64,000 bases of DNA from a virus (taxonomy: Duplodnaviria > Caudoviricetes): the IMG/VR virus record IMGVR_UViG_2562617096_000005; one strand, written 5' to 3'. Below, one piece after another: positions 4,167-38,147 of the stretch. Position 1 is the first letter of the stretch, and each line of letters begins with the position of its first letter. The position numbers and the translations under genes were made by a program. The notes below the pieces were generated by a model that was given only the letters and a program-made list of their open reading frames with translations, was not told the DNA's origin and made no database searches.

Positions 4167-6136
4167 ATGAGTTTTAGTAGAGAAGAGACAATATGTGAAT
4201 TAAATAAATTCTGGGAAACCGAAATTAAATACTGGGAACATAAACTAGGTGTTACTTCCGATGAATCGAAAGAACCATACATTAAGTCACTGGAAGAAAT
4301 GGGGAATATGGAATTAAAGTATTCCCCAATGTATCCTTTTCCAGAAGAAAAATACAGACTTGATGTAGAGGGTGTAAAAGATTTCTTTAGGTACAAGAAA
4401 ATGAATATCTATGGAAAAGATTGGAAAACAAAAACAACTGGTGGACGTAATTGGAAATAAGGGGGAAGAGCTATGACATTATATGAATATTTATCATTAG
4501 TAGAGTATAATGATGAAATTACTGTATGGGATAAAGGGTATTATGTAGAAATGTATTTTTATGGCGGCATTGAAGAAAGAGATAAGTGGTGGGATAAATC
4601 AATAAGTGAATTATCTAAATTATTAACAATAACTACTATTCATCCTACAGGTGTAACAGTTAATTATTCAGAGGTTATAGAAAAACATTTGGAAGACTTG
4701 AAAAGAGCGAACCTGTTTGATGTAACCGAAACTGATTATATCATGGATATTATAGAGTCAATTATGTCAGGTAATGTTTCAGAAGAATGGATGAAAAAGT
4801 TTGTAAATATATTGAAAAGTAATTAATAGGAGATGATAAATAATGGATTATGAAATGATTTTAGATGAAATTATTAGATTTGAGAATTTAACTTCACAGG
4901 AAATACAGGATGAGTTAGTACCTATCATTAAAAGCTACGATATAAATTTCTTATCCAAGCTCGTTAATGTATCTAAGGACAATATTCATAGAATATGCAA
5001 AAGTTTATTTGTAAATAAAAATCAAAGAGTTTCTTTTAAGCTCTATATTAAGCTCTTAGCTCTTGGTAAAGCAAAGCAAAGTAATTAGGAGGAAACAAAA
5101 ATGGAAGAACTTAAAAAGCTAAATGGAAAGAAAGTATCTTTGAAAACACTAGAAGAAGTTGAATGTTCAATGCACGTTTTAAGTATGGAATGTTTAGGGA
5201 CTTCCGGAATGTATATCGGATTTAATTGGTATTCAATCGGTTTGGATGATGGAACAGAAATTGATGTTTATTGTAGATATTAAGGAGGGAAGAAAAATGT
5301 TGGAATTATTAAATGAATTTTATATTGGAAGCGAAAAATATTGTACTGTACAAATTGGGAAAAAACAAGAATGTGTCAGTTGTTCCAGAAAAGGAATATA
5401 AACTAATTTGGGGAAAATATAATCCAAACAGATGGGGAAACAAGGAAATAGCGTAGTAAGAATTGTTCTAGTAGGAGAATAGAGATGAATAAAATGGAAT
5501 TTAAAAAATCAAAGGAATATAAAGATATATTTAAAAAAATTAAAAACTATCATGAAGGCTTCAAATTTACGTTGCCCTACTACAAAATGACACAAGGACA
5601 GAAAAATGCAATAAATATTATCACAAGCGATTGTATTAAGGAAAGAATAATTGACTCTGTATCTATTGGGTTAAATTTATCAGGCGAAATTACAGAAGAA
5701 ACATTTATTAGATTGTAAAAGTAAGGGGAAATAACCTATGAAAAAATACAAAATTGATGATTTAACAATGGAAAATATTGCTACATACATGAATGATGAA
5801 GTGAGAGAAAAAGTACATTTAAAAGAAGCACCATGTTCAAATGAACATTTTCTTGTCGCATATTATGAAGAACTTCAATCAGGAGAATTTGAGAAACAAA
5901 GTGAATTTTATGATTTGTTGCTAAATGAATTCAATATTGATATTGAAGAATTACAGAATATTGAAAGAGTGACTACCTACAATAACCACGAAATCTCTTT
6001 AGAGTGTTTGCGAGACTTAGAAAAAGAGTATGTTGTTAAAGCATGTATAAAGAACGGGTTTAGTGGCTGTAAGATAGGAAAGATATGGTATACGCTGTGT
6101 TTAATAAATGGTACTGATGTGGAAGTATATGTGTAA
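4167..6136 (+). CDS. Cluster of small hypothetical proteins (4167-4460, 4473-4826, 4843-5088, 5101-5283, 5485-5718, 5738-6136)
   Basis: Closely packed ORFs with SD sequences. Confidence 0.65.
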
Positions 6137-24341: not shown

Positions 24342-24415
24342 GGGGCTTTAGTTCAGTTGGTTAGAACGCTCGGCTCATAACCGAGAAGTCATAGGTTCGA
24401 GTCCTATAAGCCCCA
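24342..24415 (+). tRNA. tRNA with CAT anticodon, most like tRNA-Ile2 (lysidine)
   Basis: Full cloverleaf GGGGCTT/AAGCCCC, CTCGG-CTCATAA-CCGAG, TTCGAGT T-loop; no encoded CCA. Confidence 0.9.
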
Positions 24416-24559
24416 TTAGGCTGATAGATTAAATCAATTGCCATAAAAACAGAGTAGATATAGTTTTTACTGTAATGCGTACCTGTACAAGTAACAGTTT
24501 TTACTAAGGTTTTATCCCTTACTCATGAGAGGTAATGAGCCTTTGAGTCTACTAATTTT

Positions 24560-24707
24560 GATAAGCATACTCAACAGAAATCTTTGGAACGTGCACGAAC
24601 TAAGGAAAGTATGATATGGAACGAGTAAAATATGATGCGATGAATGTGGAATGTGCACATGAAACAGACTTTACATTATAGAGATGGTTCAAATCCATTG
24701 CTTATCT
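24560..24707 (+). ncRNA. tRNA-like RNA: acceptor stem and T-arm enclosing about 115 nt of non-tRNA sequence
   Basis: GATAAGC/GCTTATC stem next to a GATGG-TTCAAAT-CCATT T-arm; 18 nt identical to 25455-25472. Confidence 0.55.
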
Positions 24708-24754
24708 CTCTACTATTTGCTTTATGATTTTTTTCAAATAGTAGACTCCTTTCT

Positions 24755-24826
24755 TGGGGTATCGCCAAGCGGTAAGGCACAGGACTTTGACTCCTGTATT
24801 CGCTGGTTCGAATCCAGCTATCCCAG
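24755..24826 (+). tRNA. tRNA-Gln(TTG)
   Basis: Canonical cloverleaf, CAGGA-CTTTGAC-TCCTG. Confidence 0.95.
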
Positions 24827-24904
24827 TTTTATCTTTACTCTGTATTTTTAAACACCCCTAACACACCCCCAAAAATGCAATACTCTACAGGGTAAAGGTA
24901 AAAA
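24827..24904 (+). ncRNA. Long hairpin with C-rich loop (candidate sRNA)
   Basis: TTTTATCTTTACTCTGTA pairs with TACAGGGTAAAGGTAAAA; loop contains CACCCC and CACACCCCC. Confidence 0.45.
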
Positions 24905-24909
24905 TAAAT

Positions 24910-25019
24910 GCAATGATAGTTCAGTTGGGAGAACGGCTGGCAAAAACAATGTTGTTAAAAATACATTGTAGACAGCAAAACAAACCAGCAGGTCGCAAGT
25001 TCGACTCTTGCTCATTGCA
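24910..25019 (+). ncRNA. tRNA-like RNA 1: anticodon loop replaced by a 44-nt hairpin+ACAGCAA module
   Basis: Acceptor GCAATGA/TCATTGC, D-arm GTTC/GAAC, stem GCTGG/CCAGC, T-arm GCAAG-TTCGACT-CTTGC; insert 24941-24984. Confidence 0.85.
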
Positions 25020-25090
25020 AGCTCCTTTGTTGGAGAGGTTATCTTTTTTATTTACTTTTAAATGAGTTGCAGGAATAACTGCAATTCTGA

Positions 25091-25164
25091 TGCGGAGTAG
25101 AGCAGTCTGGAAGCTCGTTAGCCTCATCAGCTAAAGATCAGTGGTTCAAATCCACTCTCCGCAA
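25091..25164 (+). tRNA. Atypical initiator-like tRNA-Met(CAT)
   Basis: fMet-type D-arm (A11:T24) and TTCAAAT T-loop, but anticodon stem TTAGC/GCTAA and C37. Confidence 0.85.
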
Positions 25165-25392
25165 TTCCTTGAGCTATAACTTTAAAATTTTGAAATATAT
25201 TTTCAAACATATAAATCACTTCCAAATAAATTTACTCAAGGACATGCCCCAATCGTAAAAGGAAACAATATTTCTAATTCGTAGCACTCTAAGTAGAGGT
25301 AAAGAGAATAGGGTAAAACTGCATTGTGAAATGCAGAAGTTCATAAGAGAACTGCAATAAAGTAACGATTTATTGTGAATGAAAAATTCAAA

Positions 25393-25491
25393 TCAGTTAC
25401 ATACAGCAAAATATAAAACAAATGGTTAAAGAAAGTATTATGACAAAATATTTCGAGATGGTTCAAATCCATCACAATTAAATGTAGCTGA
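25393..25491 (+). ncRNA. tRNA-like RNA 2: helix+ACAGCAA module replaces the acceptor stem (Y-RNA-like topology)
   Basis: TCAGTTACAT/ATGTAGCTGA closing helix, ACAGCAA 25403-25409, D-loop remnant, anticodon arm with ATGACAA loop (GAC), T-arm GATGG-TTCAAAT-CCATC. Confidence 0.75.
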
Positions 25492-25503
25492 GAAAATTTA
25501 ATA

Positions 25504-25632
25504 TGCAGGACATAGCTCAATTGGCTAGAGCACGTAAACTTTGTAGTATTGTTATAAATATGTTACATACAGCAATTATTTCTAATGCGCTTTTAACGCC
25601 GTGGTTATCGGTTCGAGTCCGGTTGTCCTGCA
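25504..25632 (+). ncRNA. tRNA-like RNA 3: tRNA-Lys(TTT) body with a 52-nt insert in the anticodon-stem 5' strand
   Basis: CG[25535-25586]GCG-CTTTTAA-CGCCG; insert holds a TGTAG...GTTACA hairpin and TACAGCAA. Confidence 0.85.
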
Positions 25633-25637
25633 AAATA

Positions 25638-25765
25638 TGCGGAGAATAGCTCAGATGGATAGAGCACTGTTAAAATTGTAGCGATGTAAAATATTCGTTA
25701 CATGCAGCAACATACATATTGCTTAGGGAGCCAGATGTCGCAGGTTCGAGTCTTGCTTCTCCGCA
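25638..25765 (+). ncRNA. tRNA-like RNA 4: tRNA-Pro(AGG) body with a 51-nt insert in the anticodon-stem 5' strand
   Basis: CTG[25670-25720]GC-TTAGGGA-GCCAG; insert holds a TGTAGCGA/TCGTTACA hairpin and TGCAGCAA. Confidence 0.85.
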
Positions 25766-25768
25766 CAA

Positions 25769-25842
25769 CAGAATATGAGAGTAATGGGTAACTCGGTTAG
25801 TGTTGGAAGCTTTCGTTCTAGGTTCGAGTCCTAGTGTTCTGA
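25769..25842 (+). tRNA. Degenerate tRNA (possible Pro TGG pseudo-tRNA)
   Basis: Acceptor CAGAATA/TGTTCTG and perfect T-arm CTAGG-TTCGAGT-CCTAG; anticodon stem only 3 bp. Confidence 0.55.
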
Positions 25843-25882: not shown

Positions 25883-27502
25883 ATGCAAAACAATTTTATA
25901 AAAGATTTTGTAGCAGATGGCGAATTATATTTGAAACCAAAAGGATTAAATTTTGCAGAAGCTGTAAAAGAAACACTAAATGAATTGCCATATAATGTGT
26001 CCATAAGTGAAAACGGTGCAATTGGATATAAGTCTTCAGGTCATGTTTTGGTAGATATTAACTATATGACAAGTTCGCTACGAAAGAAAACAGACAAAGA
26101 ATTAATCAACTTGTTCCAAGCTGCTTATTATGAAAACCCAATGTATGCATGGAAATGGCTATTCTTCTTACGTGATATTAGAGGTGGGATGGGTGAAAGA
26201 GATACTTTTCACAGAATTATCAAGTATATGGCTGACTTTAGACCACATGAGATGACACTATTTATTCCATATATAGCAGAATATGGACGATATGATGATA
26301 CATGGGTATTGCTTGATACACAACTTAACAGTATAGTAATTAAAATGATAAACGCACAGCTTCAAGAAGATATTAAAAATTATACTGAAGATAAACCAAT
26401 ATCATTGCTTGCGAAGTGGCTACCAAAACGTAATGCAGAAAGTCATATATCAAGACATTATGCAAGACTTATTATTGAAGGGTTAGAACTCGATGATAAG
26501 ACATACAATCGTATGTTGGTGAAATTGCGTAAGAAACTCAATTTGGTAGAAACTTTTATGTGTGCAAATCAATGGTCAGCAATTGACTACAATTCAGTAC
26601 CTTCTAAAGCAAATCTATTATATCGAAACGCTTTTCTTAAACACGATCCAGAAAGAAGACAACAGTATCTTGAAGATTTGGCTAACGGAAAAGAAGGAGT
26701 AAAAATCAATGCTTCTACTAACTTTCCTCACGATATTGTGCATCAGTATGTTACTGTAGATGGATATGGTTGGAGTTATAAATTAAAAAAATATGATGAG
26801 ACATTAGAACAACTTTGGAAAAATCAAAAAGATACTATTCAGTCAGCAGAAAATATTATGGTTATTCAAGATGGTTCTGGAAGTATGTATCAACCAATAG
26901 ATAGAAATTCTTCAGTGCAAGCAGAAGAAGTTGCAACAGCACTTTCTATTTACTTTGCTGAGAGATGTTCTGGTCAATTCAATAATAAGTTTATGACATT
27001 TGGAAATAGACCAAGGTTTGTTGATATTAGCAACTGTCAAAATCTTAAAGAAAAAATTCAGATTACTTTAAAAAATACAGATTGCAGTAATACGAATATT
27101 GAAAGAGTATTCCAGTTATTATTAGACACGGCTGTAAAAAACAACATGAAACAATCTGATTTGCCAAACACGCTATTGATGATTTCGGATATGGAATTTG
27201 ACTGTATGACTTCAGGAAGAACAGATAAAGCAATGTTTGATGAATTTGCTAAAGAATATGAACGATACGGATATAAATTACCAAGACTGGTGTTTTGGAA
27301 TATTTGTTCAAGAACAGGAACAATCCCTGTTAGAGAAAATGCGAATGGAGTAGCACTTGTATCAGGATATTCTGTAAACATAATGAATATGGTATTAAGT
27401 AATGAATTAGACCCGTACAAATGCCTATTAAAACAGCTTAATACAGAAAGGTATCAGATTATTGAAGATAGATTTAAAGAACTGGAGGGAAAAAGCAAAT
27501 GA
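25883..27502 (+). CDS. DUF2828-family protein (Ro60/TROVE-like helical domain plus vWA)
   Basis: LRDIRGGMGER, YGRYDD, SLLAKWLP, IDYNSVPS...AFLKHD, MIDAS DGSGS, ISDMEFD, VFWN. Confidence 0.8.
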   Translation: MQNNFIKDFVADGELYLKPKGLNFAEAVKETLNELPYNVSISENGAIGYKSSGHVLVDINYMTSSLRKKTDKELINLFQAAYYENPMYAWKWLFFLRDIRGGMGERDTFHRIIKYMADFRPHEMTLFIPYIAEYGRYDDTWVLLDTQLNSIVIKMINAQLQEDIKNYTEDKPISLLAKWLPKRNAESHISRHYARLIIEGLELDDKTYNRMLVKLRKKLNLVETFMCANQWSAIDYNSVPSKANLLYRNAFLKHDPERRQQYLEDLANGKEGVKINASTNFPHDIVHQYVTVDGYGWSYKLKKYDETLEQLWKNQKDTIQSAENIMVIQDGSGSMYQPIDRNSSVQAEEVATALSIYFAERCSGQFNNKFMTFGNRPRFVDISNCQNLKEKIQITLKNTDCSNTNIERVFQLLLDTAVKNNMKQSDLPNTLLMISDMEFDCMTSGRTDKAMFDEFAKEYERYGYKLPRLVFWNICSRTGTIPVRENANGVALVSGYSVNIMNMVLSNELDPYKCLLKQLNTERYQIIEDRFKELEGKSK

Positions 27503-30117
27503 ATTTGAATGGTTTAAATGACCAGCAAGTAGAAAAAAGCAGACAAAAATATGGTAGCAATAAGCTGCCAGAACCAAAGCAAAAGACGTGGTTTAATTTT
27601 TTTACAGACGGATTAAAGGATAAAATCACAATTATTCTAATCATGATGGCTGGAGTTTTCTTTGCTCTTGCATTTCTAGGAGTAGAAAGTTTTAGTGAGC
27701 CTGTTATTATTTTAGCAGTGTTAGCAATTGTGAGTGGAATTAATGTTAGAACAAATCTATCAATACAGAAATCAAATAATAGTCTAAGAGCAAAAACGGC
27801 GGTTAGATATTGTAATGTAATTAGAAATGGTTCTGTTGTAAAAATCAATAAAGATGATATTGTAGTTGGCGATATTATATGTCTTGAAATGGGACAGGAA
27901 ATCTTTGCAGATGGTTACATTGTTGAAGGTGAAATTGCTGTAAGTAACGCTGCAATTAATGGTGAAACAAAAGAATGTAAAAAACATTACATTTCAGGAT
28001 TTAAATATCCAGAAGAAATAACTACAGACCATTATACAGATGAAACGTGCGTATTTGCCGGAACAACTGTTATGTCTGGTGAAGCAAAAATGTTAGTACA
28101 GACAGTTGGTATTAACACTGTCAATGGAGACACACTGGTAAAAATGCAAACATTAGAGCCTACTAAAACTGCTTTAGATATTGCATTAGATAAGTTAGCT
28201 GATTTTATTTCTAAATGGGGAACAGTGGCAGCCTTTGGAGGATTTTTAATCGCAACAGCAACAGGTATCTTAGAAGTTGGATTTAGAGAATACTTTTCAG
28301 GAGATGTGTTACAGATAATAAGAACAATCGCTGAAAACATTTCAGTAGCCCTGACAATTATTGTAGCTGCTGTACCAGAAGGATTACCAATGATTGTAAA
28401 ATTTGTTACTAAAATGAATGTTAAGACAATGGAAAAGGCAAATATTCTTACAAAAAATCCTTCAAAGATACCAGAATTGGCTTATGTGAATTACGTATGT
28501 ACAGATAAAACAGGAACATTGACAACAGGTGTTATGACACCAAAAGAAATTATTACTGGTGACATGAAATCTCAAAAAATAAATAAAGATAATCTACCAG
28601 AAATTCTTAAAGAAAATATAGCTTTAACAAGCGGAAGCTTATTTGATGAAAAAGGAAAAATTACTGGTGGCAATTCAATAGATAGAGCAATGCTTAGTCT
28701 TCTTAATCAATCTGAATTCAATTCTATTTTGACTCAAAACCCAAAATCTAAAAAACAGCCTTTCAATAGTCAATTTAAGTATTCAGCGTTTTCTACAAGC
28801 TGTGAGTTTGGAGATACTTCCTATTATAAGGGTGCTCCTGAAAAGATTTTATCCAATTGTAAATACAGACTAGAAAATGGGAAAATTGTCGAAATGACAG
28901 ATGAGGATAGAATAAATATCTTGAGTGAAATCTATGACCTTACCACGAAAGCAATGAGATGTATTGCATTTGCATACAATATGGAAGCTTTAGAGGAAAA
29001 TGTAATACCAGAAGATTTAGTATTCACAGCAGTAATTGGAGTACAAGATCCAGTTCGTAAAGAAGTTCCTGATGCTGTTAAGACAGCAAAAGAGGCTGGA
29101 ATTACAGTAGTAGAAATTACAGGAGACTGTATTGAAACAGCAGTTGCAGTAGCTCAAGAAGCTGGTATTTATGAAAAAGGTGATATGGCTTTAACTGATG
29201 CAGAGTTTTCTGGAATGACAGATGAAGAAATTAAAGACATTATTCCACGTTTAAGAGTTATTGCTAGATGTTCTCCTACAACAAAATTGAGACTTATTAC
29301 ATTAGCTCAGGAGCTTGGATATTCCACAGCAATGACAGGTGACGGTACAAATGATGCACCAGCATTAACAAAATCTGACGTTGGTTTCGCCATGAATAGT
29401 GGCACTGATGTGGCAAAAGAAGCTGGTGATATTATCCTTGTAGACGATAACTTTGCTTCTATTGTAAAAGGAGTAAAACTTGGAAGAACATTTATGCACA
29501 ATATTCTTATGTTCTTGAATTTCCAGTTGCCAATCAATTATTCACTTCTTGCTATGAACTTCTTATATCCAGTCTTTTTAACAGGCTCTTTCTTAACATC
29601 AGCTCTTATTCTTATTATCAACATTATTATGGACTCTTTGAACTCCTTATCATTTGGTGGTGAACCTCCAAAAGATGAATATATGAAAGAACAACCTTTA
29701 AAGAAAGGTGAAGGATTATTTGTAAATGGAAGTAAAAAACATATTGCTATTAACGCATGTATCTTCTCTTTAGCGTTTGGTTTAATGATTTTTAGTCCAA
29801 TTAAGCATTTATTTGCAACTGAAGCCGCTGGATTATCAGCGAGATTTGCTTTACTTTGCTTTATGGCGGTATTAAATGGCTTTACTCTTAGAACAGATAG
29901 TAGAAACCTGTTTAAAGGATTAAGCAAGAATAAATTATTCTATCGAATTGCTATTGGGATTTTCGTAGGAACTATTGCTCTTGTACAGTTTGGGGGAAGC
30001 GTATTACATACAGCTTCATTGAACTTAACTCAGTGGTTAGCAGTAACAGCATTATCCACAATCGTTCTGTTAGCAGATTTTATTAGAAAAACAATGAAGA
30101 AAAGGAGAAATAAATAA
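27499..30117 (+). CDS. P-type ATPase, Ca2+-transporting PMCA-like (P2)
   Basis: NGET, VAAVPEGLP, DKTGTLT, KGAPE, TGDGTNDAPAL, NIIMD; multiple TM helices; ATGA overlap with the DUF2828 gene. Confidence 0.92.
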   Translation: MNLNGLNDQQVEKSRQKYGSNKLPEPKQKTWFNFFTDGLKDKITIILIMMAGVFFALAFLGVESFSEPVIILAVLAIVSGINVRTNLSIQKSNNSLRAKTAVRYCNVIRNGSVVKINKDDIVVGDIICLEMGQEIFADGYIVEGEIAVSNAAINGETKECKKHYISGFKYPEEITTDHYTDETCVFAGTTVMSGEAKMLVQTVGINTVNGDTLVKMQTLEPTKTALDIALDKLADFISKWGTVAAFGGFLIATATGILEVGFREYFSGDVLQIIRTIAENISVALTIIVAAVPEGLPMIVKFVTKMNVKTMEKANILTKNPSKIPELAYVNYVCTDKTGTLTTGVMTPKEIITGDMKSQKINKDNLPEILKENIALTSGSLFDEKGKITGGNSIDRAMLSLLNQSEFNSILTQNPKSKKQPFNSQFKYSAFSTSCEFGDTSYYKGAPEKILSNCKYRLENGKIVEMTDEDRINILSEIYDLTTKAMRCIAFAYNMEALEENVIPEDLVFTAVIGVQDPVRKEVPDAVKTAKEAGITVVEITGDCIETAVAVAQEAGIYEKGDMALTDAEFSGMTDEEIKDIIPRLRVIARCSPTTKLRLITLAQELGYSTAMTGDGTNDAPALTKSDVGFAMNSGTDVAKEAGDIILVDDNFASIVKGVKLGRTFMHNILMFLNFQLPINYSLLAMNFLYPVFLTGSFLTSALILIINIIMDSLNSLSFGGEPPKDEYMKEQPLKKGEGLFVNGSKKHIAINACIFSLAFGLMIFSPIKHLFATEAAGLSARFALLCFMAVLNGFTLRTDSRNLFKGLSKNKLFYRIAIGIFVGTIALVQFGGSVLHTASLNLTQWLAVTALSTIVLLADFIRKTMKKRRNK

Positions 30118-30863
30118 TGGGATTTTTCAGTTTTTTAAATGGAAATAAAAATGAAACTGAGTCTGGGCACAATAGTGCACCAGCTCAGGAAACTAAAAAA
30201 GTATGTATTGATATGTCAAAAGAGAATTTGAATAAAGTTTTAATTAACATGTCAAAAGATAACAAGATTGATATGACAAAACATACGGCAAGAGTTGCAG
30301 TTGCAATGGATTATAGTGGAAGTATGAGCGATGAATTTAGAGAAGGAAAAGTACAGGATGTAATTACAAGACTTCTTCCTATTGCCTTGAGGTTTGATGA
30401 TAATAAAGAACTGGAATGTTGGCTATTTTCAAATGGAGAAGAAAGACTTGAAGTTATTACTGAAAAGAATTATGAAAACTATGTAGATAAAGTAATGTTG
30501 AAAGCACGTATGGGCATGGGAGGTACGGAATATGCACCTGTATTAACAAGTATGGTTCATCACTATAAAGATATTGAGCCTAGCACAATTCCTGCATTTA
30601 TCATGTTTATTACAGATGGAGATAACTGGGATAAAGAAAAAACAAATGACATTATCAGGGAATTATCCGCATACAACATATTTGTCCAGTTTGTAGGAAT
30701 TGGAAATGATAATTTTAAATATCTGAAATCTTTGGACGACATGAAAGGCAGAGAGAATGATAATACAGGGTTTATCTCTGTAAAAGATATTGCAAAATTA
30801 GATGATGAGCAGCTATATACAGAGCTTTTGAGACAATATAAAGATTGGTTAGCGAATAAATAG
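30117..30863 (+). CDS. vWA domain protein (Ter-associated, TerF-vWA-like)
   Basis: DYSGSM MIDAS, GGTEY, FITDG, FVQFVGIG. Confidence 0.85.
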   Translation: MGFFSFLNGNKNETESGHNSAPAQETKKVCIDMSKENLNKVLINMSKDNKIDMTKHTARVAVAMDYSGSMSDEFREGKVQDVITRLLPIALRFDDNKELECWLFSNGEERLEVITEKNYENYVDKVMLKARMGMGGTEYAPVLTSMVHHYKDIEPSTIPAFIMFITDGDNWDKEKTNDIIRELSAYNIFVQFVGIGNDNFKYLKSLDDMKGRENDNTGFISVKDIAKLDDEQLYTELLRQYKDWLANK

Positions 30864-30875
30864 GAGGAAGAAAAA

Positions 30876-31517
30876 ATGCCAGTAATTGATATGAGTAAAA
30901 ATCAAAAAATTAACATGACAAAAGAAGATGGAAGCAACATTAAAAATATTTTCATTGGTGTGCGTTGGGATATGAATAGATTTTCCGGCGAAGGAGATAT
31001 TGATTTTGATATACATGGGTTCTTAACAAACAGCGATAAAAAAGTTCAATATCCTTCAGATATCGTGAATTTTAGTACATACGGAGATGGAAAAAATTAT
31101 CCGTGGGTTGAATACTCTGGAGATAACAGAACAGGCGATGACTCACAGGGTATTGAATTTAATGGGAGACATTTTGATGAGTATTTTATTGTTCACGCTG
31201 ATAAGTTTCCAGCAAACAAAACAGACTTTACAATTTGCTTAACAATTTTCAGAGCAATTCAACGATTGCAGAATTTTGGCATGGTAAATAATGCAATGGT
31301 TACAGTATATGACTATGACAATCCGTCAGGTTTTGAAGCAAACTTTGATTTATCAGAAGATGAAAAGTTTGAAAAATTAAATGCTGTGGAGCTTGGAAGA
31401 TTATACAAGCATAACGGTGGATTTAAATTTCAGGCAATTGGTTCTGGTTATACAGGCGGTATGGTTGAATTATTTAAAACATTTGATTTAGACATTGATG
31501 AAGGTAGGGATGCTTAA
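30876..31517 (+). CDS. terD: TerD/TerZ family stress protein
   Basis: GVRWD, DFD, SGDNRTGD, ELGRLYKHNGGFKFQAIG. Confidence 0.85.
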   Translation: MPVIDMSKNQKINMTKEDGSNIKNIFIGVRWDMNRFSGEGDIDFDIHGFLTNSDKKVQYPSDIVNFSTYGDGKNYPWVEYSGDNRTGDDSQGIEFNGRHFDEYFIVHADKFPANKTDFTICLTIFRAIQRLQNFGMVNNAMVTVYDYDNPSGFEANFDLSEDEKFEKLNAVELGRLYKHNGGFKFQAIGSGYTGGMVELFKTFDLDIDEGRDA

Positions 31518-32260
31518 TGACTTTCGCAACGGTATTACTTTTATTAACTGTTGGTATTGTTGGAGGAATTCTTTTGTTTACAAAAATAGGCAAAAGAATT
31601 CGCCTTAGAGCAACAGGAACAATCAATGAAAAATTAAGTGAAGATGCATCTACTCCTGAAGGTGCAAAAGCATATTTTAATGCTGCTATTGAAAAGAAAG
31701 AAGAAGATTATTCTAAAGCAAGTGCTAACTATAGTCAAATTCTTGGAAAATTATCTGCATTTGAAAAAGATTTAAGAACACTCCAAAAAGATGAAATGAA
31801 AGTTAATATGGATATTGACTCTTGCGTATCTCGTGGTGATGATGAAGGGGCTAAAACATATTTGAAAATGCAGCAAGAAATTACAGATAAGATGGAAGTT
31901 CTCAAAGAAGGTATTAAGGATTTGAAAGAGAACGAAAGGTTGCAGAAAGAGACAGTTGATAAGCTCTATGATGATTTGGCACAGTTAAAAGCTGAAAAAG
32001 AAAAAACCGTATTCACTTTGGAAACAGTAGAAGCTACAAAATCTTTGAAAGCTGATACCACAGTGTCTTCAAATGAAGAAGATAAAATGTTAGAAAAAGT
32101 CAGAGATGGAGTCAGAAAAGCAAGAGAAGAGTCTGAAGGAAACAGAATAGCTTATGAAAATTCTGCTAGCGTGCAGAAAAAACGTCTGGATAAAAAAATG
32201 AAAGACGAAGAAATCAATAAGAAGTTAGCTGAACTGAAAGCAAAGAAAGGAATGAAATAA
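31517..32260 (+). CDS. Membrane-anchored PspA/IM30-like coiled-coil protein
   Basis: N-terminal TM helix, long coiled coil, C-terminal DEEINKKLAELKAK. Confidence 0.6.
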   Translation: MTFATVLLLLTVGIVGGILLFTKIGKRIRLRATGTINEKLSEDASTPEGAKAYFNAAIEKKEEDYSKASANYSQILGKLSAFEKDLRTLQKDEMKVNMDIDSCVSRGDDEGAKTYLKMQQEITDKMEVLKEGIKDLKENERLQKETVDKLYDDLAQLKAEKEKTVFTLETVEATKSLKADTTVSSNEEDKMLEKVRDGVRKAREESEGNRIAYENSASVQKKRLDKKMKDEEINKKLAELKAKKGMK

Positions 32261-32261
32261 T

Positions 32262-32398
32262 ATGTGGGTTCTATTTCTTTTAGCGGTTTTAGGATATGCA
32301 GTGTTGGGATTGATAATTGTATGGATTGGAAATAAAGTTATCAATTCAATCAAAAAAGATGACAAAAAGATAGAAAAAGAATTGGAGGAAGACCATAA
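32262..32398 (+). CDS. Small membrane protein
   Basis: MWVLFLLAVLGYAVLGLIIVW..., single TM segment. Confidence 0.55.
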
Positions 32399-32401
32399 GC
32401 C

Positions 32402-33292
32402 ATGAAGAAAAAAGTTATAGCTAGTATTGTTTTAGTAGTTGCATTGGCAGGCGGAGTTTTTACAGTGAGCCAGATGGAAAAAATTCCAACAGGAAGAGTA
32501 GGAGTTCAATATTCATTGAATGGTGGAGTAAAAGATGAAGTATTGGACATGGGAGTACATTTTGTTCTTCCTGGTATTCACGTAAAAGAATTTACAATTG
32601 GAAATGAACAGTTAATTCTATCAAAAGATAAGAGAGAAGGAAGTGAAGGGGACGACTCTTTCAAAGTTGCTACTTCTGATGATGCAAGTATTTCTATTAG
32701 TTTTCAGATGTCCTATAGATATATTCCTGAAACAGTAGTAGATACATATAAGAAATTCAAAGGTATGGATGGAGAAGATATTGTTGAACAGCGTGTGAAA
32801 ACAGTGTTAAAATCAAAGATTTCTGAAATTACAACAGATTACAGTATGATGCAGTTATATAGTGGAAATAGATCAGAAATCAACGACAAAATCACTGAAT
32901 ATTTAAATGAAGAATTTGGCGAAGCGTATGGCATTGAAGTTTTGGATGCATCCATTATTGACGTTCATCCTGACGATAAGTTAAAGGCAGCAATTGATGA
33001 TAGAGTGAAAGCTTTGCAGGAAAAACAGCAAGCGGAAGCAGAGCAGGAAAAAATTAAAGTTCAAAAAGAAACCGAAAAAATGCAAGCGGAAGCAGATGCT
33101 CAGATTGCAGTAACACAGGCTCAAGCAAAAGCAGAAAAAATGCGTATCGAAGCTCAGGCGGAGGCAGATGCAAATAATTTGAAATCTAACTCCATTACAC
33201 CAGAACTCATTCAGATGAAAGAGGCAGAGGCAAGATTACAGCATGGTTGGGTAACTGTTCAGGGTGCAAATGCAGTAGTTAAGGAGGAATAA
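32402..33292 (+). CDS. SPFH/Band-7 (prohibitin-like) protein
   Basis: IPTGRVGVQY...G, TSDD, AQAEADAN...SITPELI. Confidence 0.9.
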   Translation: MKKKVIASIVLVVALAGGVFTVSQMEKIPTGRVGVQYSLNGGVKDEVLDMGVHFVLPGIHVKEFTIGNEQLILSKDKREGSEGDDSFKVATSDDASISISFQMSYRYIPETVVDTYKKFKGMDGEDIVEQRVKTVLKSKISEITTDYSMMQLYSGNRSEINDKITEYLNEEFGEAYGIEVLDASIIDVHPDDKLKAAIDDRVKALQEKQQAEAEQEKIKVQKETEKMQAEADAQIAVTQAQAKAEKMRIEAQAEADANNLKSNSITPELIQMKEAEARLQHGWVTVQGANAVVKEE

Positions 33293-34403: not shown

Positions 34404-34568
34404 ATGTCTTACAGAGAAATTCTAAAACAGTCTGAATATTCATTTCTTAGAGAAAACCCACATTTAGGAAATAACATCTGCTTGATTGGTATGGGAGGTT
34501 CTATTGCTTATGGAACTAACCTGCCAACAAGCGATGTGGATATTAACAGGGGTAAACATGCACATTGA
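34404..34568 (+). pseudogene. Truncated RlaP-type (Pol beta) nucleotidyltransferase, N-terminus only
   Basis: FLRENPHLGNNICLIGMGGSIAYGTNLPTSDVDI, then a stop just after the DxD motif. Confidence 0.8.
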
Positions 34569-35727
34569 TAGGATAAAAAATTTCATTTCTATGTATCCAC
34601 AAATATATTCAGATGAAAATACAGATAAAATAAATGAAATCAAAACAAACCGAAAATATATATGGATTTGCAACAAAGGACATAAATTTGAGGCATTGCC
34701 ATCGAACATTATAAAAGATGATGGATTTCATTGTACAGTATGTAGCAATCATACGGTTTTACAGGGGTATAACGACATGGCTACAACACATCCAGAATGT
34801 ATGAAATATCTTTTGAATTTAGAAGATGGATATAAATATACTTTTGGTTCTAATAAAAAAATCTATTGGAAATGTCCTGATTGTGGATATGTAATGTATA
34901 AAGCTCCAAACAAGTTTCTTACCAATAAGAATAAATGCAATAACTGTAATGATTTTATTAGCTACGGTGAAAAATATGTGTCAAAATTTTTAGATTTAAT
35001 GAATACTAATTACACTAAACATGTATCTTTTAAATGGTCTGGGAAAAAATCATACGATTTTTATTTAAAAGATTATATGTGTATTATTGAAGTTCACGGG
35101 AAACAACATTACATAGAGAGCGGTTTTACAGATTTAGGTGGAAGAACATTAAAACAAGAAAAAGCAAATGATGATTTCAAAAAAGATATTGCAAGTAAAA
35201 ATGGAATACAACACTATATAGAAATAAACGCTCGTAATTCAGATGCAGACTATATTAAAAACAGTATTTTACAAAGTAATATCGAAACAGTTTTAAACCA
35301 AAAAATAACATTATCAGATGAACAGTGGGAGCTATGTCATGTGGCTACCTGTAATAATATGTTAAAAACAGTGTGTGATATTTATGAAAATAAAACTAAA
35401 TCAATAAAAGAAATATCCAGAGAAGTGGGATATTGCAGAAATACTATTGTATCTTGGTTAAAAAAGGGAGCTAAAATTGGATGGTGTTCTTATGATTCTA
35501 AAGAAGCGGTTTTAAAGGCAAACAAGGAAACTTCAAAACGTACAGTAAAAACCATGTCAAAGCCGATTTTTCAGATGACGAAAGATTTAAAAATAATTGG
35601 TGAATATCCTAGCATTAACGAAGCACAACGAAAGTTGCATATTTCACATATATGGGATGTCATAGTTGGAAGAAGGCAATCAGCAGGAGGATATATATGG
35701 GGATATCAAGAGCTTGACATGAATTGA
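34558..35727 (+). mobile_element. Free-standing homing-endonuclease-like gene (Zn ribbons, PD-(D/E)XK/Vsr-like nuclease, NUMOD1)
   Basis: WICNKGH and WKCPDCG ribbons; YDFYL...IIEVHGKQHY; GEYPSINEA...AGGYIW. Confidence 0.75.
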
Positions 35728-35769
35728 CTTTAACTTAATTAAACATAGATGAAAAGAGGTGAGTGAAAA

Positions 35770-36684
35770 CTGAGTATATTACCCAAATTATTTATGATGA
35801 TTGGTATTCCCGGTAGTGGAAAATCACAAGAAGCAGAGATAATTGCAAAAGAACATAACGCAGTAATTCATGCTTCTGATAGATTGCGAGAAGAGTTGTT
35901 CCGAGATGTAAACCACATGGGAGATAATGGCTTTCTTTTTAATGAACTTCATAAAAGAATTCAGAGAGATTTAAAAGCTGGTAAAAACGTTATATATGAT
36001 GCAACAAATATCAATTCGAAAAAAAGAATATCATTTCTGAAATCTTTAAAAGATATTCCCTGTGAAAAAATTGCAATTCTCATAATGACTCCATACCAGC
36101 AATGTTTGAAAAATAATGCAGAGAGGGAAAGAAGTATTCCTGAAAGTGTTATAGAGAAAATGTATACGAACTTCCAAGTTCCTTATTATTATGAAGGATT
36201 TGATATTATTCAGGTAGTTTTATGGCAAGGGGCAGATTACAAAGAGCCAGAAGAAATTGTTACAAGTTATAATAATTTTAATCAAGAAAATGAGCACCAT
36301 ACTTTAACTCTTGGTCGGCACTTATATCATGCTTTTCATTACATAGGGCAACGATTTGTTAGACATGAAAGAGGATATACTTTCGAACTGTTGTGGGCTT
36401 CATATCTTCACGACATAGGGAAGCCATTTTGCAAGGAGTGCAAAGAAGGAGACAAAAATGCTCACTATTATAACCACATGAACGTAGGTGCATACGACTC
36501 ATTTTTTTATACCTCAAAAGTATTAGACGACTCATTATTAATAGCTTGGTTAATTAACTGGCACATGGAACCCTTCTTTTGGAAGAAAGATGAAAAATTA
36601 AAAGAAAACAGATTAAAACTATGGGGAAAAGATTTATTTGAAATGATAGAAAAATTACATAAAGCGGATTTATACGCTCATTAA
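35770..36684 (+). CDS. Polynucleotide kinase (AAA_33) fused to an HD phosphohydrolase; probable CTG start
   Basis: GIPGSGKS, DATN, HHTLTLGRH, LHDIGKPF, WHM. Confidence 0.85.
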   Translation: MSILPKLFMMIGIPGSGKSQEAEIIAKEHNAVIHASDRLREELFRDVNHMGDNGFLFNELHKRIQRDLKAGKNVIYDATNINSKKRISFLKSLKDIPCEKIAILIMTPYQQCLKNNAERERSIPESVIEKMYTNFQVPYYYEGFDIIQVVLWQGADYKEPEEIVTSYNNFNQENEHHTLTLGRHLYHAFHYIGQRFVRHERGYTFELLWASYLHDIGKPFCKECKEGDKNAHYYNHMNVGAYDSFFYTSKVLDDSLLIAWLINWHMEPFFWKKDEKLKENRLKLWGKDLFEMIEKLHKADLYAH

Positions 36685-36860
36685 AAAGGAGAATAAGAAT
36701 GTTAAAAGAGAAACAGTTTATTGAAGATGTATGTAAGGTATTGGTACATGAAGATTCCGAAACAGTATTTGCTTTATTAAATAAAGCAGGTATTGAAATT
36801 GATGTAGAGAAAGATAATGTTTTTGATGTAATCCGTAAAATCAGAGGTTTAAAAGCTTAA

Positions 36861-38147
36861 TTGTATTGTGGATATATTGTACAGCTACAGAACCTGCGTA
36901 AGCACTCAAATGCAGACAGATTGCAATGTGTAAATATTTTTGGAAACAATGTAATTGTAGATATGTCTTATTACGAAGGACAAATAGTAGTCTTCTTTCC
37001 TGTAGATGGAAGATTGAGTGATGAATACGCATTAGCAAATAATTTAGTTAGAAAAAAAGATGAGACAGGTAAAAATATTGGAGGATATTTAGAGCCTGAG
37101 AAAAATAACATCAGAGCATTGAAGCTTAGAGGAGAAAAGTCCGAAGGTTTAGTAATGCCGGTAGAAACATTATTATCATACACAAGTATGGAAACATTAA
37201 AGGTCGGAGATAAAATTACGACATTAAATGGTCATTTGATTTGTGAGAAATATATCCCTAAAAGAAAAACCTTAAAAGGTGGAAACAGTTCAACAAAATC
37301 AAAAAACATTTCTAAGAAGGAAAAATATCCTATCTTTATAGAACATGTTGATACTGAACAGTTGATGTGCAATAAACAAGCATTTAAACCCGGAGATAAA
37401 TGCACAATTACATTAAAGATGCATGGAACAAGCAGTAGAGAAATGTATAGTATCAAACATGAACGATTCAAAAAAAATTTCATAGAAAAATTACTAAAAA
37501 AAGAACCTAGAACTAAAAAAGAATGGACGTATGTTTCAGGTACAAGGAGATGTATATTAGAAGATTTCGATGGAGGATTTTATGGTTCAAATGAATTTAG
37601 AAAACCGTGGCATGATTTCTTTGAAGGAAAATTAGAAAAAGGTGAAACAGTCTACGGAGAGATTGTAGGTTACGTTAATAATCAAACTCCTATTATGGGT
37701 AGTTGTTCTACTTCAAAATTACAGGATAAGGAAGCCAAAAAACTTTATGGAAAAGAAATGGTATTTTCCTATGGTTGTAATCCCGGAGAAAATCAATACT
37801 ATGTTTATCGTATGACGCTGACCAATGAGGACGGATACACTATTGAATATCCTGATTGGCTCATGAGATTAAGATGTGAGCAAATGGGAGTGGATTGTGT
37901 GCCACTTTTTGAAACATTTGAATATTCAACGTGGGAAGATTTAATGGAACGTGTTGAAAAATACTATGATGGAGTAGACCCTGTAGGAAAAACACACATT
38001 CGAGAAGGAGTTGTTGTACGAATTGAAAATAGACCTAAATTCACAGCATTTAAACATAAAAACTTCACTTTTAAATTAGTCAGCGGTATCATCTCAGAAA
38101 ATGCTGACATTGCAAATATGACAGACGATATGGTTGAGGAGCTTTAA
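36861..38147 (+). CDS. ATP-dependent RNA ligase (Rnl2/DRB0094-like) with N-terminal OB domain
   Basis: HSNADRL, LRGEKSEG, KMHGTS (motif I), YGEI, EGVVVR, FKHK. Confidence 0.85.
   Translation: MYCGYIVQLQNLRKHSNADRLQCVNIFGNNVIVDMSYYEGQIVVFFPVDGRLSDEYALANNLVRKKDETGKNIGGYLEPEKNNIRALKLRGEKSEGLVMPVETLLSYTSMETLKVGDKITTLNGHLICEKYIPKRKTLKGGNSSTKSKNISKKEKYPIFIEHVDTEQLMCNKQAFKPGDKCTITLKMHGTSSREMYSIKHERFKKNFIEKLLKKEPRTKKEWTYVSGTRRCILEDFDGGFYGSNEFRKPWHDFFEGKLEKGETVYGEIVGYVNNQTPIMGSCSTSKLQDKEAKKLYGKEMVFSYGCNPGENQYYVYRMTLTNEDGYTIEYPDWLMRLRCEQMGVDCVPLFETFEYSTWEDLMERVEKYYDGVDPVGKTHIREGVVVRIENRPKFTAFKHKNFTFKLVSGIISENADIANMTDDMVEEL

What the first reader, a model, noticed from the sequence alone, without database searches (positions are those of the whole stretch)
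25393..25491. Permuted member: the module replaces the acceptor stem instead of interrupting the anticodon arm
Seen: strand order is reversed (GTTACAT-ACAGCAA first, ATGTAGC last), so the helix closes the RNA ends and encloses a D-loop remnant, an anticodon arm (ATGACAA loop, GAC) and a T-arm. Inference: the same element grafted at two positions and in two permutations argues for a portable protein-binding tag under selection rather than an intron relic. This topology parallels Y RNAs.
Basis: partly seen in the sequence, partly recalled or inferred. Interest (0 to 1): 0.75.

Follow-up and report, generated by a model that had tools for sequence, protein, structure and literature searches.

The report
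Y-RNA-like handle RNA beside Ro60-like gene
This 99-base stretch is a real small structured RNA gene: a tRNA body without its acceptor stem, closed by a conserved "handle", and it belongs to a widespread phage RNA family, absent from Rfam and from my paper searches, that sits beside a Ro60-shaped protein gene much as Y RNAs sit beside Ro60.

Summary
Bases 25393-25402 pair with 25482-25491 in a 10-bp helix. ACAGCAA follows the 5' strand. Inside lie a GGTTAAAG D-loop remnant, a 7-bp arm with loop AUGACAA, and a T arm.

The same architecture recurs in 58 of 240 loci found through homologues of the downstream DUF2828 protein. It always lies on the gene strand and occurs with about 14 different helix sequences. 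The seven core pairs are always paired, and four of them show compensatory changes.

A covariance model built without the window's sequence finds this element at 55 bits (E 2e-10). It is the only hit in the 3.07-Mb genome. The same model, run on 150 other genomes of the family, hit twice. Both hits lie directly upstream of a DUF2828 gene.

The protein's predicted fold matches Ro60 structures and little else.

The end-closing form is the family's usual form. The hairpin inserted into neighbouring tRNAs is the unusual permutation. The closest known topology is Deinococcus Yrn1.

Protein binding and a discrete transcript remain untested. This scan has already noted the same system on other DNA, in at least 170 genomes. 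I found no paper or Rfam family for it.

The parts
25393..25402 (+). Handle, 5' strand of the closing helix (TCAGTTACAT)
   Evidence: Pairs with 25482-25491 over 10 bp. The homologous columns covary in 25 related RNAs.
25403..25409 (+). Conserved single-stranded ACAGCAA motif of the handle
   Evidence: [A/G]CAGCAA is invariant in all aligned relatives. On the gene strand it occurs 368 times in the 500 nt before the DUF2828 gene across 160 loci, against 1-45 per 500-nt bin within and after the gene on that strand and 3-23 per bin on the opposite strand.
25424..25431 (+). D-loop remnant GGTTAAAG (G18-G19-like, no D stem)
   Evidence: A GG(A/U)(U)AAA block is present in every sequence read by eye in A4; one (L190, GGATTAAAA) fell outside the regex. 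Its role in a tRNA-type elbow with the T loop is inferred.
25433..25453 (+). Anticodon-like arm: 7-bp stem, 7-nt loop AUGACAA
   Evidence: Present in the MFE fold. A hairpin occupies this position in most relatives, but its loop size and sequence vary.
25457..25473 (+). T arm (GATGG / TTCAAAT / CCATC)
   Evidence: GGTTC.A.TCC is invariant, and two stem pairs covary (8-15 double changes each).
25482..25491 (+). Handle, 3' strand of the closing helix (ATGTAGCTGA)
25541..25575 (+). The same handle as a closed hairpin inside tRNA-Lys(UUU) 25506-25633
   Evidence: TGTAGT ... GTTACAT-ACAGCAA. Rfam tRNA hit with a 65-nt insert.
25677..25710 (+).
   Evidence: TGTAGCGA ... TCGTTACAT-GCAGCAA.
24946..24978 (+). 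Divergent handle hairpin replacing the anticodon loop of tRNA-like gene 24910-25019
   Evidence: ACAATGT ... ACATTGT-AG-ACAGCAA. Rfam tRNA at 52 bits with a 43-nt insert.
25883..27502 (+). DUF2828 + DUF7788 protein, Ro60-fold (HEAT-repeat ring plus vWA with DGSGS MIDAS motif): proposed partner
   Evidence: Pfam. AlphaFold2 pLDDT 83. The top 11 Foldseek PDB hits are all Ro60/TROVE, E 1e-10 to 7e-6. DGSGSM is conserved.

Best explanation
The element is a small non-coding RNA gene of a phage 'ACAGCAA-handle' family, working like a Y RNA. Shown: its two ends pair into a roughly 10-bp helix followed by unpaired ACAGCAA (the handle). This helix stands where a tRNA acceptor stem would be. It encloses a tRNA-derived body: a D-loop remnant, an anticodon-like hairpin and a T arm. 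The helix and T stem covary, and the motif is invariant. The RNA lies on the same strand just upstream of a gene whose product is predicted to fold like Ro60. Inferred: the Ro60-like ring binds the handle, as Ro60 binds the terminal stem and internal-loop motif of Y RNAs. The GG of the D-loop remnant and the T loop form a tRNA-type elbow that the particle presents to a tRNA-recognising host or phage factor. In this window the same handle is also built as a side arm into two tRNA-type genes and into the anticodon-loop position of a third. One protein could therefore be loaded onto differently shaped tRNA-like cargo. The array has no internal promoter or terminator signal. The RNA is probably cut from a polycistronic transcript, with RNase P cleavage at the tRNA-Lys 5' end, about 15 nt downstream, helping to define its 3' end. 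A kinase-like gene and an RNA ligase gene lie 8-11 kb downstream. The most likely role is therefore in tRNA/RNA damage, repair or decoy conflicts during infection. That last step is the weakest.
For: Structure. Family membership without circularity: the leave-one-out model R2 gives 55 bits, E 2.3e-10, as the single hit in the window and in the genome. Recurrence: 58 of 240 loci hold the same architecture at 55 bits or more, and all 244 model hits are on the gene strand with none on the other strand. Covariation: the score is 0.508 against 0.135 in shuffles (0 of 500 reach it), and slid controls give 0.02-0.19. RNAalifold recovers the helix on its own, with 7 of 7 core pairs always paired and 4 showing double changes. 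Selection that ignored the 3' strand still gives a closing helix of 7 bp or more in 24 of 29 elements. Reciprocal link to the protein: scanning 150 other family genomes with the RNA model alone gave 2 hits, each 68-280 nt upstream of, and co-directional with, a 35%-identical DUF2828 gene. Protein fold: the top Foldseek hits are Ro60 from phage phiLo, Xenopus, human and Deinococcus. Precedent: phage Ro60 with two Y-like RNAs directly upstream (PMC12135203), and the Yrn1 topology (PMC4201824). Context: AAA_33 kinase-like and RNA ligase genes.
Against: There is no expression, end-mapping or binding data. The element matches no Rfam Y-RNA family, and the nearest YrlA hit (32.5 bits against a threshold of 69) lies elsewhere in the array. 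The handle motif ACAGCAA differs from the GNCGAA / GGUCCGA Ro-binding motifs. The protein is not recognised by the Pfam TROVE model, and its only sequence-level link is E 0.004 to phiLo Ro60. Orthologous loci at 72-99% protein identity could not be fetched, so covariation rests on distant relatives aligned by structure. The three GTTACAT handles in this window are nearly identical in sequence, so they give no covariation among themselves. The alignments behind the covariation counts came from seed sequences chosen for having a helix; reduce this bias but do not remove it.
Confidence: 0.8

Rival explanations
1. The handle is a processing or splicing signal. An endonuclease-ligase pair (for example the nearby kinase and RNA ligase) would excise handle-bearing inserts from the tRNAs. 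This element would then be a by-product or a processing-site mimic, not a stable RNP RNA.
For: tRNA-Lys and the neighbouring tRNA-like gene keep complete anticodon arms, and a 51-52-nt insert might need removal. A kinase-like gene and an RNA ligase gene are nearby.
Against: Terminal-handle units have no exons to join, yet they are the commonest form next to the gene. The family-wide association is with the Ro60-fold gene. No bulge-helix-bulge or group I features were seen by eye, and Rfam reported no intron family here.
Confidence: 0.08
2. The handle units are cis-regulatory leader elements of the DUF2828 mRNA, acting as autoregulatory protein-binding operators rather than as independent small RNAs.
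For: Same strand, directly upstream, with no promoter or terminator signal between the array and the gene. In many loci the last unit ends under 100 nt from the start codon.
Against: Here three tRNA-type genes, which RNase P and RNase Z would be expected to cut out, lie between the element and the gene. Units also occur more than 1.5 kb upstream among tRNAs and just downstream of the gene. The conserved T arm and GG elbow have no obvious use in a leader. This rival is not exclusive of the main reading.
Confidence: 0.08
3. It is a decayed tRNA pseudogene (a former tRNA-Val) whose flanks pair by chance.
For: It has a T arm, an anticodon-like loop with GAC and a D-loop remnant. The genome is AT-rich, so short helices are common, and my simple stem-length control was noisy.
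Against: The same acceptor-less architecture occurs with about 14 different, compensated helices in 58 loci. The leave-one-out model gives E 2e-10. ACAGCAA is invariant.
Confidence: 0.02

Closest known systems
Deinococcus radiodurans Yrn1 (Y RNA bound by Rsr/Ro60)
   Same: A terminal 5'-3' helix carries the Ro-binding site and stands in the position of a tRNA acceptor stem. Inside are D-loop-like features without a full D arm, an anticodon-like arm and a conserved T stem-loop. It is encoded next to the Ro60 gene (PMC4201824).
   Different: Its partner is a bona fide TROVE protein. The binding motif overlaps GNCGAA-type sequence, not ACAGCAA. No sequence or Rfam-level similarity was detected here.
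YrlA (Rfam RF02553), bacterial and mycobacteriophage tRNA-like Y RNAs
   Same: A terminal stem, a conserved unpaired motif, and a tRNA-like domain with a T arm. It lies within 4 kb of, and co-directional with, the Ro60 gene.
   Different: In YrlA the order is T arm, closed acceptor-like stem, then D arm, so the Ro helix extends the anticodon stem. Here the order is D remnant, anticodon-like arm, T arm, and the helix replaces the acceptor stem. The element does not score with the YrlA model.
Thermus phage phiLo Ro60 with Yrl1/Yrl2
   Same: A phage-encoded Ro60-fold protein (the best structural match, 9kop/9l5y) with Y-like RNAs directly upstream. These have a 5'-3' stem flanking an internal loop with a short conserved motif (PMC12135203).
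   Different: The motif is CGAA, not ACAGCAA. No tRNA-embedded copies are reported. The protein is only 16% identical in the structural alignment.
Permuted or split tRNA genes (red alga Cyanidioschyzon merolae, some archaea; recalled from my own knowledge, not checked in a paper here)
   Same: The word 'permuted', and a tRNA-derived body with unusual ends.
   Different: Those genes place the 3' half before the 5' half and restore a normal tRNA through bulge-helix-bulge processing. Here the arm order is normal, no acceptor stem exists, and no mature tRNA can result.

Membership tests
Y RNA / YrlA (Rfam RF02553, RF00019) | Scores at or above the Rfam gathering threshold | tested here: not met
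   No Rfam hit up to E = 10 overlaps 25393-25491. The only YrlA hit (32.5 bits against 69) spans 25578-25688, which is the 3' half of tRNA-Lys plus the 5' half of the next tRNA-like gene.
Y RNA / YrlA | Encoded within about 4 kb of, and on the same strand as, a Ro60 orthologue | tested here: inconclusive
   The element is 392 nt upstream of, and co-directional with, a protein whose predicted fold matches Ro60. That protein is DUF2828/DUF7788 rather than Pfam TROVE, so orthology is not shown.
Y RNA / YrlA | Terminal helix formed by the 5' and 3' ends, supported by covariation | tested here: met
Y RNA / YrlA | Ro-binding motif GNCGAA(N)G, or GGUCCGA / CGAA, in or beside the 5' strand | tested here: not met
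   The conserved motif is [A/G]CAGCAA, preceded by an AG.C..C-type strand. No CGAA is present.
Y RNA / YrlA | tRNA-like domain with T and D arms | tested here: inconclusive
   The T arm is present and covaries. The D arm is reduced to a GG(A/U)UAAA loop remnant. This resembles Yrn1 more than YrlA.
Y RNA / YrlA | Physically bound by the Ro60 protein | not testable with these tools
   Needs RIP, EMSA or cryo-EM.
tRNA | Cloverleaf with acceptor stem and D stem, detectable by tRNA models | tested here: not met
   Not called by ARAGORN or by Rfam tRNA even at E = 10. No acceptor stem or D stem is present.
Permuted tRNA gene | 3' half encoded upstream of the 5' half, with a processing motif joining them | tested here: not met
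   The arm order is D remnant, anticodon-like arm, T arm, which is the normal order.
Ro60 / TROVE protein (the partner) | HEAT-repeat ring plus C-terminal vWA domain with a MIDAS motif | tested here: met
   The AF2 model is helical from about residue 55 to 290, followed by an alpha/beta domain. Foldseek aligns the full length to Ro60 structures, TM 0.5-0.58. DGSGSM is conserved.
Ro60 / TROVE protein (the partner) | Match to the Pfam TROVE model by sequence | tested here: not met
   Only DUF2828 and DUF7788 are reported at E <= 0.001. phmmer against the PDB gives E 0.004 to phiLo Ro60 over 74 residues.

The most novel reading that the evidence does not exclude
ACAGCAA plus its helix is a topology-independent loading tag. 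One Ro60-like ring would capture any tRNA-shaped cargo. Whole tRNAs would be held through a side arm in the anticodon stem, and acceptor-less tRNA elbows or bare anticodon hairpins through an end-closing helix. This would build a second, phage-borne kind of Ro/Y-RNA particle that shields, repairs or decoys tRNAs in the conflict with host anticodon nucleases.
Probability: 0.3. Interest if true: 0.85.

Novelty: new variant of a known kind. Interest (0 to 1): 0.62.

Why it matters
Ro60 and its Y RNAs are conserved from bacteria to humans, yet what the tRNA-like parts of bacterial Y RNAs do is still unknown. This family offers many natural variants of one handle joined to different tRNA-derived cargo. 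In this single locus the same handle appears in both circular permutations. That makes the modular 'handle plus cargo' idea directly testable with one protein and a few transcripts. It also shows that DUF2828/DUF7788 proteins are probably RNA-binding Ro60 relatives. And it flags a class of long 'tRNA' genes in phage arrays that standard tRNA finders miss or mis-annotate.

Tried and rejected
1. My first idea was an intron-like mini-insertion in tRNAs. I dropped it for this element because it has no exons and belongs to a large class of end-closed units.

2. Simple stem-length statistics against random positions were uninformative. AT-rich, tRNA-dense flanks give many 7-9-bp stems by chance. I replaced them with covariance models, a selection that ignored the 3' strand, and a leave-one-out model.

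Single-protein scans of viral and genome contigs found nothing. Profile scans of all three collections returned only relatives at 58% identity or less. A DNA search of 300 family genomes matched only ordinary tRNA segments.

4. A blastn search against GenBank phages matched only the canonical tRNAs.

5. The YrlA sub-threshold hit is not this element. It comes from a T arm followed by a D arm across two neighbouring tRNA-type genes. Their acceptor strands do not pair with each other by my manual check.

6. The permuted-tRNA-gene reading was rejected because the arm order is normal.

7. Coding potential was rejected. Only trivial ORFs of 59 aa or less overlap the element.

8. Paper searches for DUF2828, TROVE with tRNA-like and prophage, and ACAGCAA with tRNA found nothing relevant.

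Full report
**What is there.** The window holds a co-directional array of tRNA and tRNA-like genes (24342-25842). A 539-aa gene follows at 25883-27502. The flagged stretch reads as follows:

- 25393-25402 TCAGTTACAT
- 25403-25409 ACAGCAA
- 25424-25431 GGTTAAAG
- 25433-25453, a 7-bp hairpin with loop AUGACAA
- 25457-25473, a canonical T arm
- 25482-25491 ATGTAGCTGA

The two outer segments form 10 contiguous pairs. The unconstrained minimum-free-energy fold of 25390-25495 returns exactly the closing helix, the middle arm and the T arm (-17.7 kcal/mol, z = -3.25, 0 of 200 shuffles as stable). Neither ARAGORN nor the Rfam tRNA model calls it, even at E = 10. Only trivial ORFs overlap it.

**The same handle elsewhere in the window.** GTTACAT[A/G]CAGCAA occurs exactly three times in the window and in the whole 3.07-Mb genome. 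One copy is here. The other two are hairpins (TGTAG[T/C] - loop - GTTACAT - [A/G]CAGCAA) set into the anticodon stems of the next two tRNA-type genes. The first is tRNA-Lys, which Rfam calls as a tRNA with a 65-nt insert. A more divergent copy replaces the anticodon loop of the tRNA-like gene at 24910-25019. Laid side by side, the end-closed and hairpin forms are circular permutations of one module. The helix end away from ACAGCAA is either capped by an 8-10-nt loop or left open as the RNA's termini.

**The neighbouring protein.** Pfam sees DUF2828 plus DUF7788 and no TROVE domain. phmmer against PDB sequences gives only a weak hit (E 0.004) to the Ro60 of Thermus phage phiLo. An AlphaFold2 model built on 50 homologues has mean pLDDT 83 and pTM 0.79. 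Its 11 best Foldseek matches in the PDB are all Ro60/TROVE structures: phiLo 9kop/9l5y, Xenopus 1yvr/1yvp/2i91, human 9nen and related entries, and Deinococcus 2nvo. E-values run from 1e-10 to 7e-6 over about 520-570 aligned columns, with TM 0.5-0.58 for the best. Isolated vWA domains follow. A DGSGSM MIDAS-type motif is conserved. The protein is therefore Ro60-shaped but not demonstrably a Ro60 orthologue.

**Comparative evidence.** Profile scans with the protein returned 240 loci at 43-58% identity from genome, viral and metagenome contigs, mostly gut and rumen phages and prophages of Clostridia.

- In the first 160 loci, [A/G]CAGCAA occurs 368 times on the gene strand in the 500 nt before the start codon. 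Within and after the gene the same strand gives 1-45 per 500-nt bin, and the opposite strand gives 3-23 per bin.
- In the loci read by eye, one to three end-closed units (strand - ACAGCAA - body - complementary strand - (U)UG) lie directly before the gene. Handle-bearing long tRNAs lie further upstream.
- A subset shares this element's full architecture, including the GG(A/U)UAAA block and the T arm.
- A covariance model of that class (R1) found it at 55 bits or more in 58 of the 240 loci. Shorter handle units scored 28-47 bits in many more. All 244 reported hits are on the gene strand and none on the other strand.

**Covariation.**

- On a plain MAFFT alignment of 16 distinct members, the closing helix and T stem give 88% paired cells against 69% in shuffles. 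The covariation score is 0.508 against 0.135, and 0 of 500 shuffles reach it. Sliding the partner by 1-3 columns gives 0.02-0.19.
- On 25 model-aligned members, RNAalifold predicts the closing helix on its own. All seven core pairs are paired in all 25 sequences. Four carry double compensatory changes, for example AU/UA/GC/CG at one position and AU/GC/CG at another. Three are invariant (A-U, G-C, C-G).
- About 14 different helix sequences are represented, and the window's (AGUUACAU) is unique among them.
- My seed was chosen for having a helix, so I re-selected elements by motif, GG block and T arm only. Of 29 distinct elements, 24 then had a closing helix of 7 bp or more immediately after the T arm. 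Several of the five exceptions run straight into a tRNA D-arm sequence and are probably hairpin-type handles inside tRNAs.
- A model rebuilt without the window's sequence (R2) scores the element at 55 bits, E 2.3e-10. The next hit in the window is 16 bits, and the element is the only hit in the genome.

**Reciprocal link to the protein.** R2 alone, run over 150 other genomes of the host's family, hit twice. Both hits lie 68 and 280 nt upstream of, and co-directional with, a gene 35% identical to the DUF2828 protein (tblastn E 1e-90). The RNA predicts the protein as well as the protein predicts the RNA.

**What it most likely is.**

- Shown: a conserved, covarying, strand-specific RNA structure with an invariant unpaired heptamer, tied to a Ro60-fold gene.
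- Established elsewhere: Ro60 binds the terminal stem and adjacent conserved bases of Y RNAs. Bacterial Y RNAs carry tRNA-like domains. Phage phiLo Ro60 binds two Y-like RNAs encoded directly upstream of its gene and assembles with host PNPase (PMC4201824; PMC12135203).
- Inferred: the DUF2828 ring binds the helix-plus-ACAGCAA handle. The GG block and T loop form a tRNA elbow presented to some tRNA-recognising factor. The RNA is cut from a polycistronic transcript, since no promoter or terminator signal lies within the array, and the tRNA-Lys 5' end lies about 15 nt beyond the helix.
- Weakest step: a P-loop kinase-like gene (35794-36684) and an RNA ligase gene (36861-38147) lie downstream. 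This fits a role in RNA damage and repair conflicts, as in the Salmonella rsr-yrlBA-rtcBA operon (PMC7790460, listed; the operon's make-up is from my own knowledge, as I did not read the paper).

**Comparison with known systems.** The topology matches Deinococcus Yrn1 as Chen et al. describe it. In Yrn1 the Rsr-binding terminal helix stands in place of the acceptor stem, and the RNA has D-loop features, an anticodon-like arm and a T stem-loop. YrlA has the opposite arm order. Membership in the Rfam Y-RNA families fails on score and on motif (ACAGCAA against GNCGAA/CGAA). I therefore file the element as working like a Y RNA but belonging to a distinct handle class paired with a distinct Ro60-like protein family.

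The word 'permuted' needs inverting. Within this family the end-closed form is the usual form, and the tRNA-embedded hairpin is the unusual permutation. The middle arm looks like an anticodon arm here and in the CUCAUAA-loop relatives. Other members have loops of 3-9 nt, so anticodon mimicry is not a family-wide constraint.

**Novelty and limits.** No Rfam family covers the handle. My paper searches found nothing on DUF2828-linked RNAs. The scan's own notebook shows the same system noted on other DNA in at least 170 genomes, and the neighbouring tRNAs of this window have their own report. I re-tested the points I rely on.

The following remain untested: expression, RNA ends, protein binding and function. 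Compensatory change within this element's own lineage has therefore not been examined.

Noticed in passing
window 24560-24707: A tRNA-like RNA of about 148 nt has a 7-8-bp acceptor-type closing stem and a T arm. Its 18 nt GAGATGGTTCAAATCCAT are identical to 25455-25472 of the handle RNA. The interior holds a GTGCAC...GTGCAC helix and no ACAGCAA (ACAGAAA is the nearest match). This suggests T-arm exchange between array members.
   Followed up: partly
window 25578-25688: A sub-threshold Rfam YrlA hit (32.5 bits, E 9e-5) runs from the 3' half of tRNA-Lys across the spacer into the 5' half of the next tRNA-like gene. The handle strands of neighbouring genes are identical, so a handle 3' strand of one could in principle pair with the handle 5' strand of the next in an unprocessed transcript, giving a YrlA-like T-then-D order.
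   Followed up: partly
window 25769-25842: A weak tRNA (Rfam 36 bits, missed by ARAGORN) with mismatches in the anticodon stem lies immediately before the DUF2828 gene.
   Followed up: no
window 25165-25392: A 228-nt spacer between tRNA-Met and the handle RNA has local hairpins (for example around 25320-25337 and 25355-25376). It matches no Rfam family and neither of my models.
   Followed up: no
L027:2731-2964, L028:2785-2928, L112 about 2850-2990: Short end-closed handle units (58-90 nt) directly before the gene carry only a hairpin with an anticodon-type 7-nt loop, for example CUUUUAA or CUGAUAA. These are handle plus anticodon stem-loop mimics without a T arm.
   Followed up: partly
L117, L118, L119, L124, L131, L137 and others at about 4606-4675: A handle unit (30-33 bits) also lies just downstream of the DUF2828 gene in one group of loci, so the units flank the gene on both sides.
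   Followed up: no
L148:2642-2769, L194:6318-6445, L116:5502-5629: A 128-nt subclass has the end-closing handle replacing the acceptor stem of a body with a full D arm, anticodon arm and T arm, plus an extra hairpin after ACAGCAA.
   Followed up: no
L038:6030-6370: Two tandem Clostridiales-1 RNAs (RF01699, 97 and 69 bits) lie about 1.5 kb downstream of a DUF2828 gene.
   Followed up: no
window 27499-33292 and 34486-38147: The DUF2828 stop overlaps the start of a P-type cation ATPase. After it come TerF-like vWA, TerD, PspA-like and SPFH genes, a NUMOD1/treble-clef (homing-endonuclease-like) gene, an AAA_33 kinase-like gene and an RNA ligase gene.
   Followed up: partly
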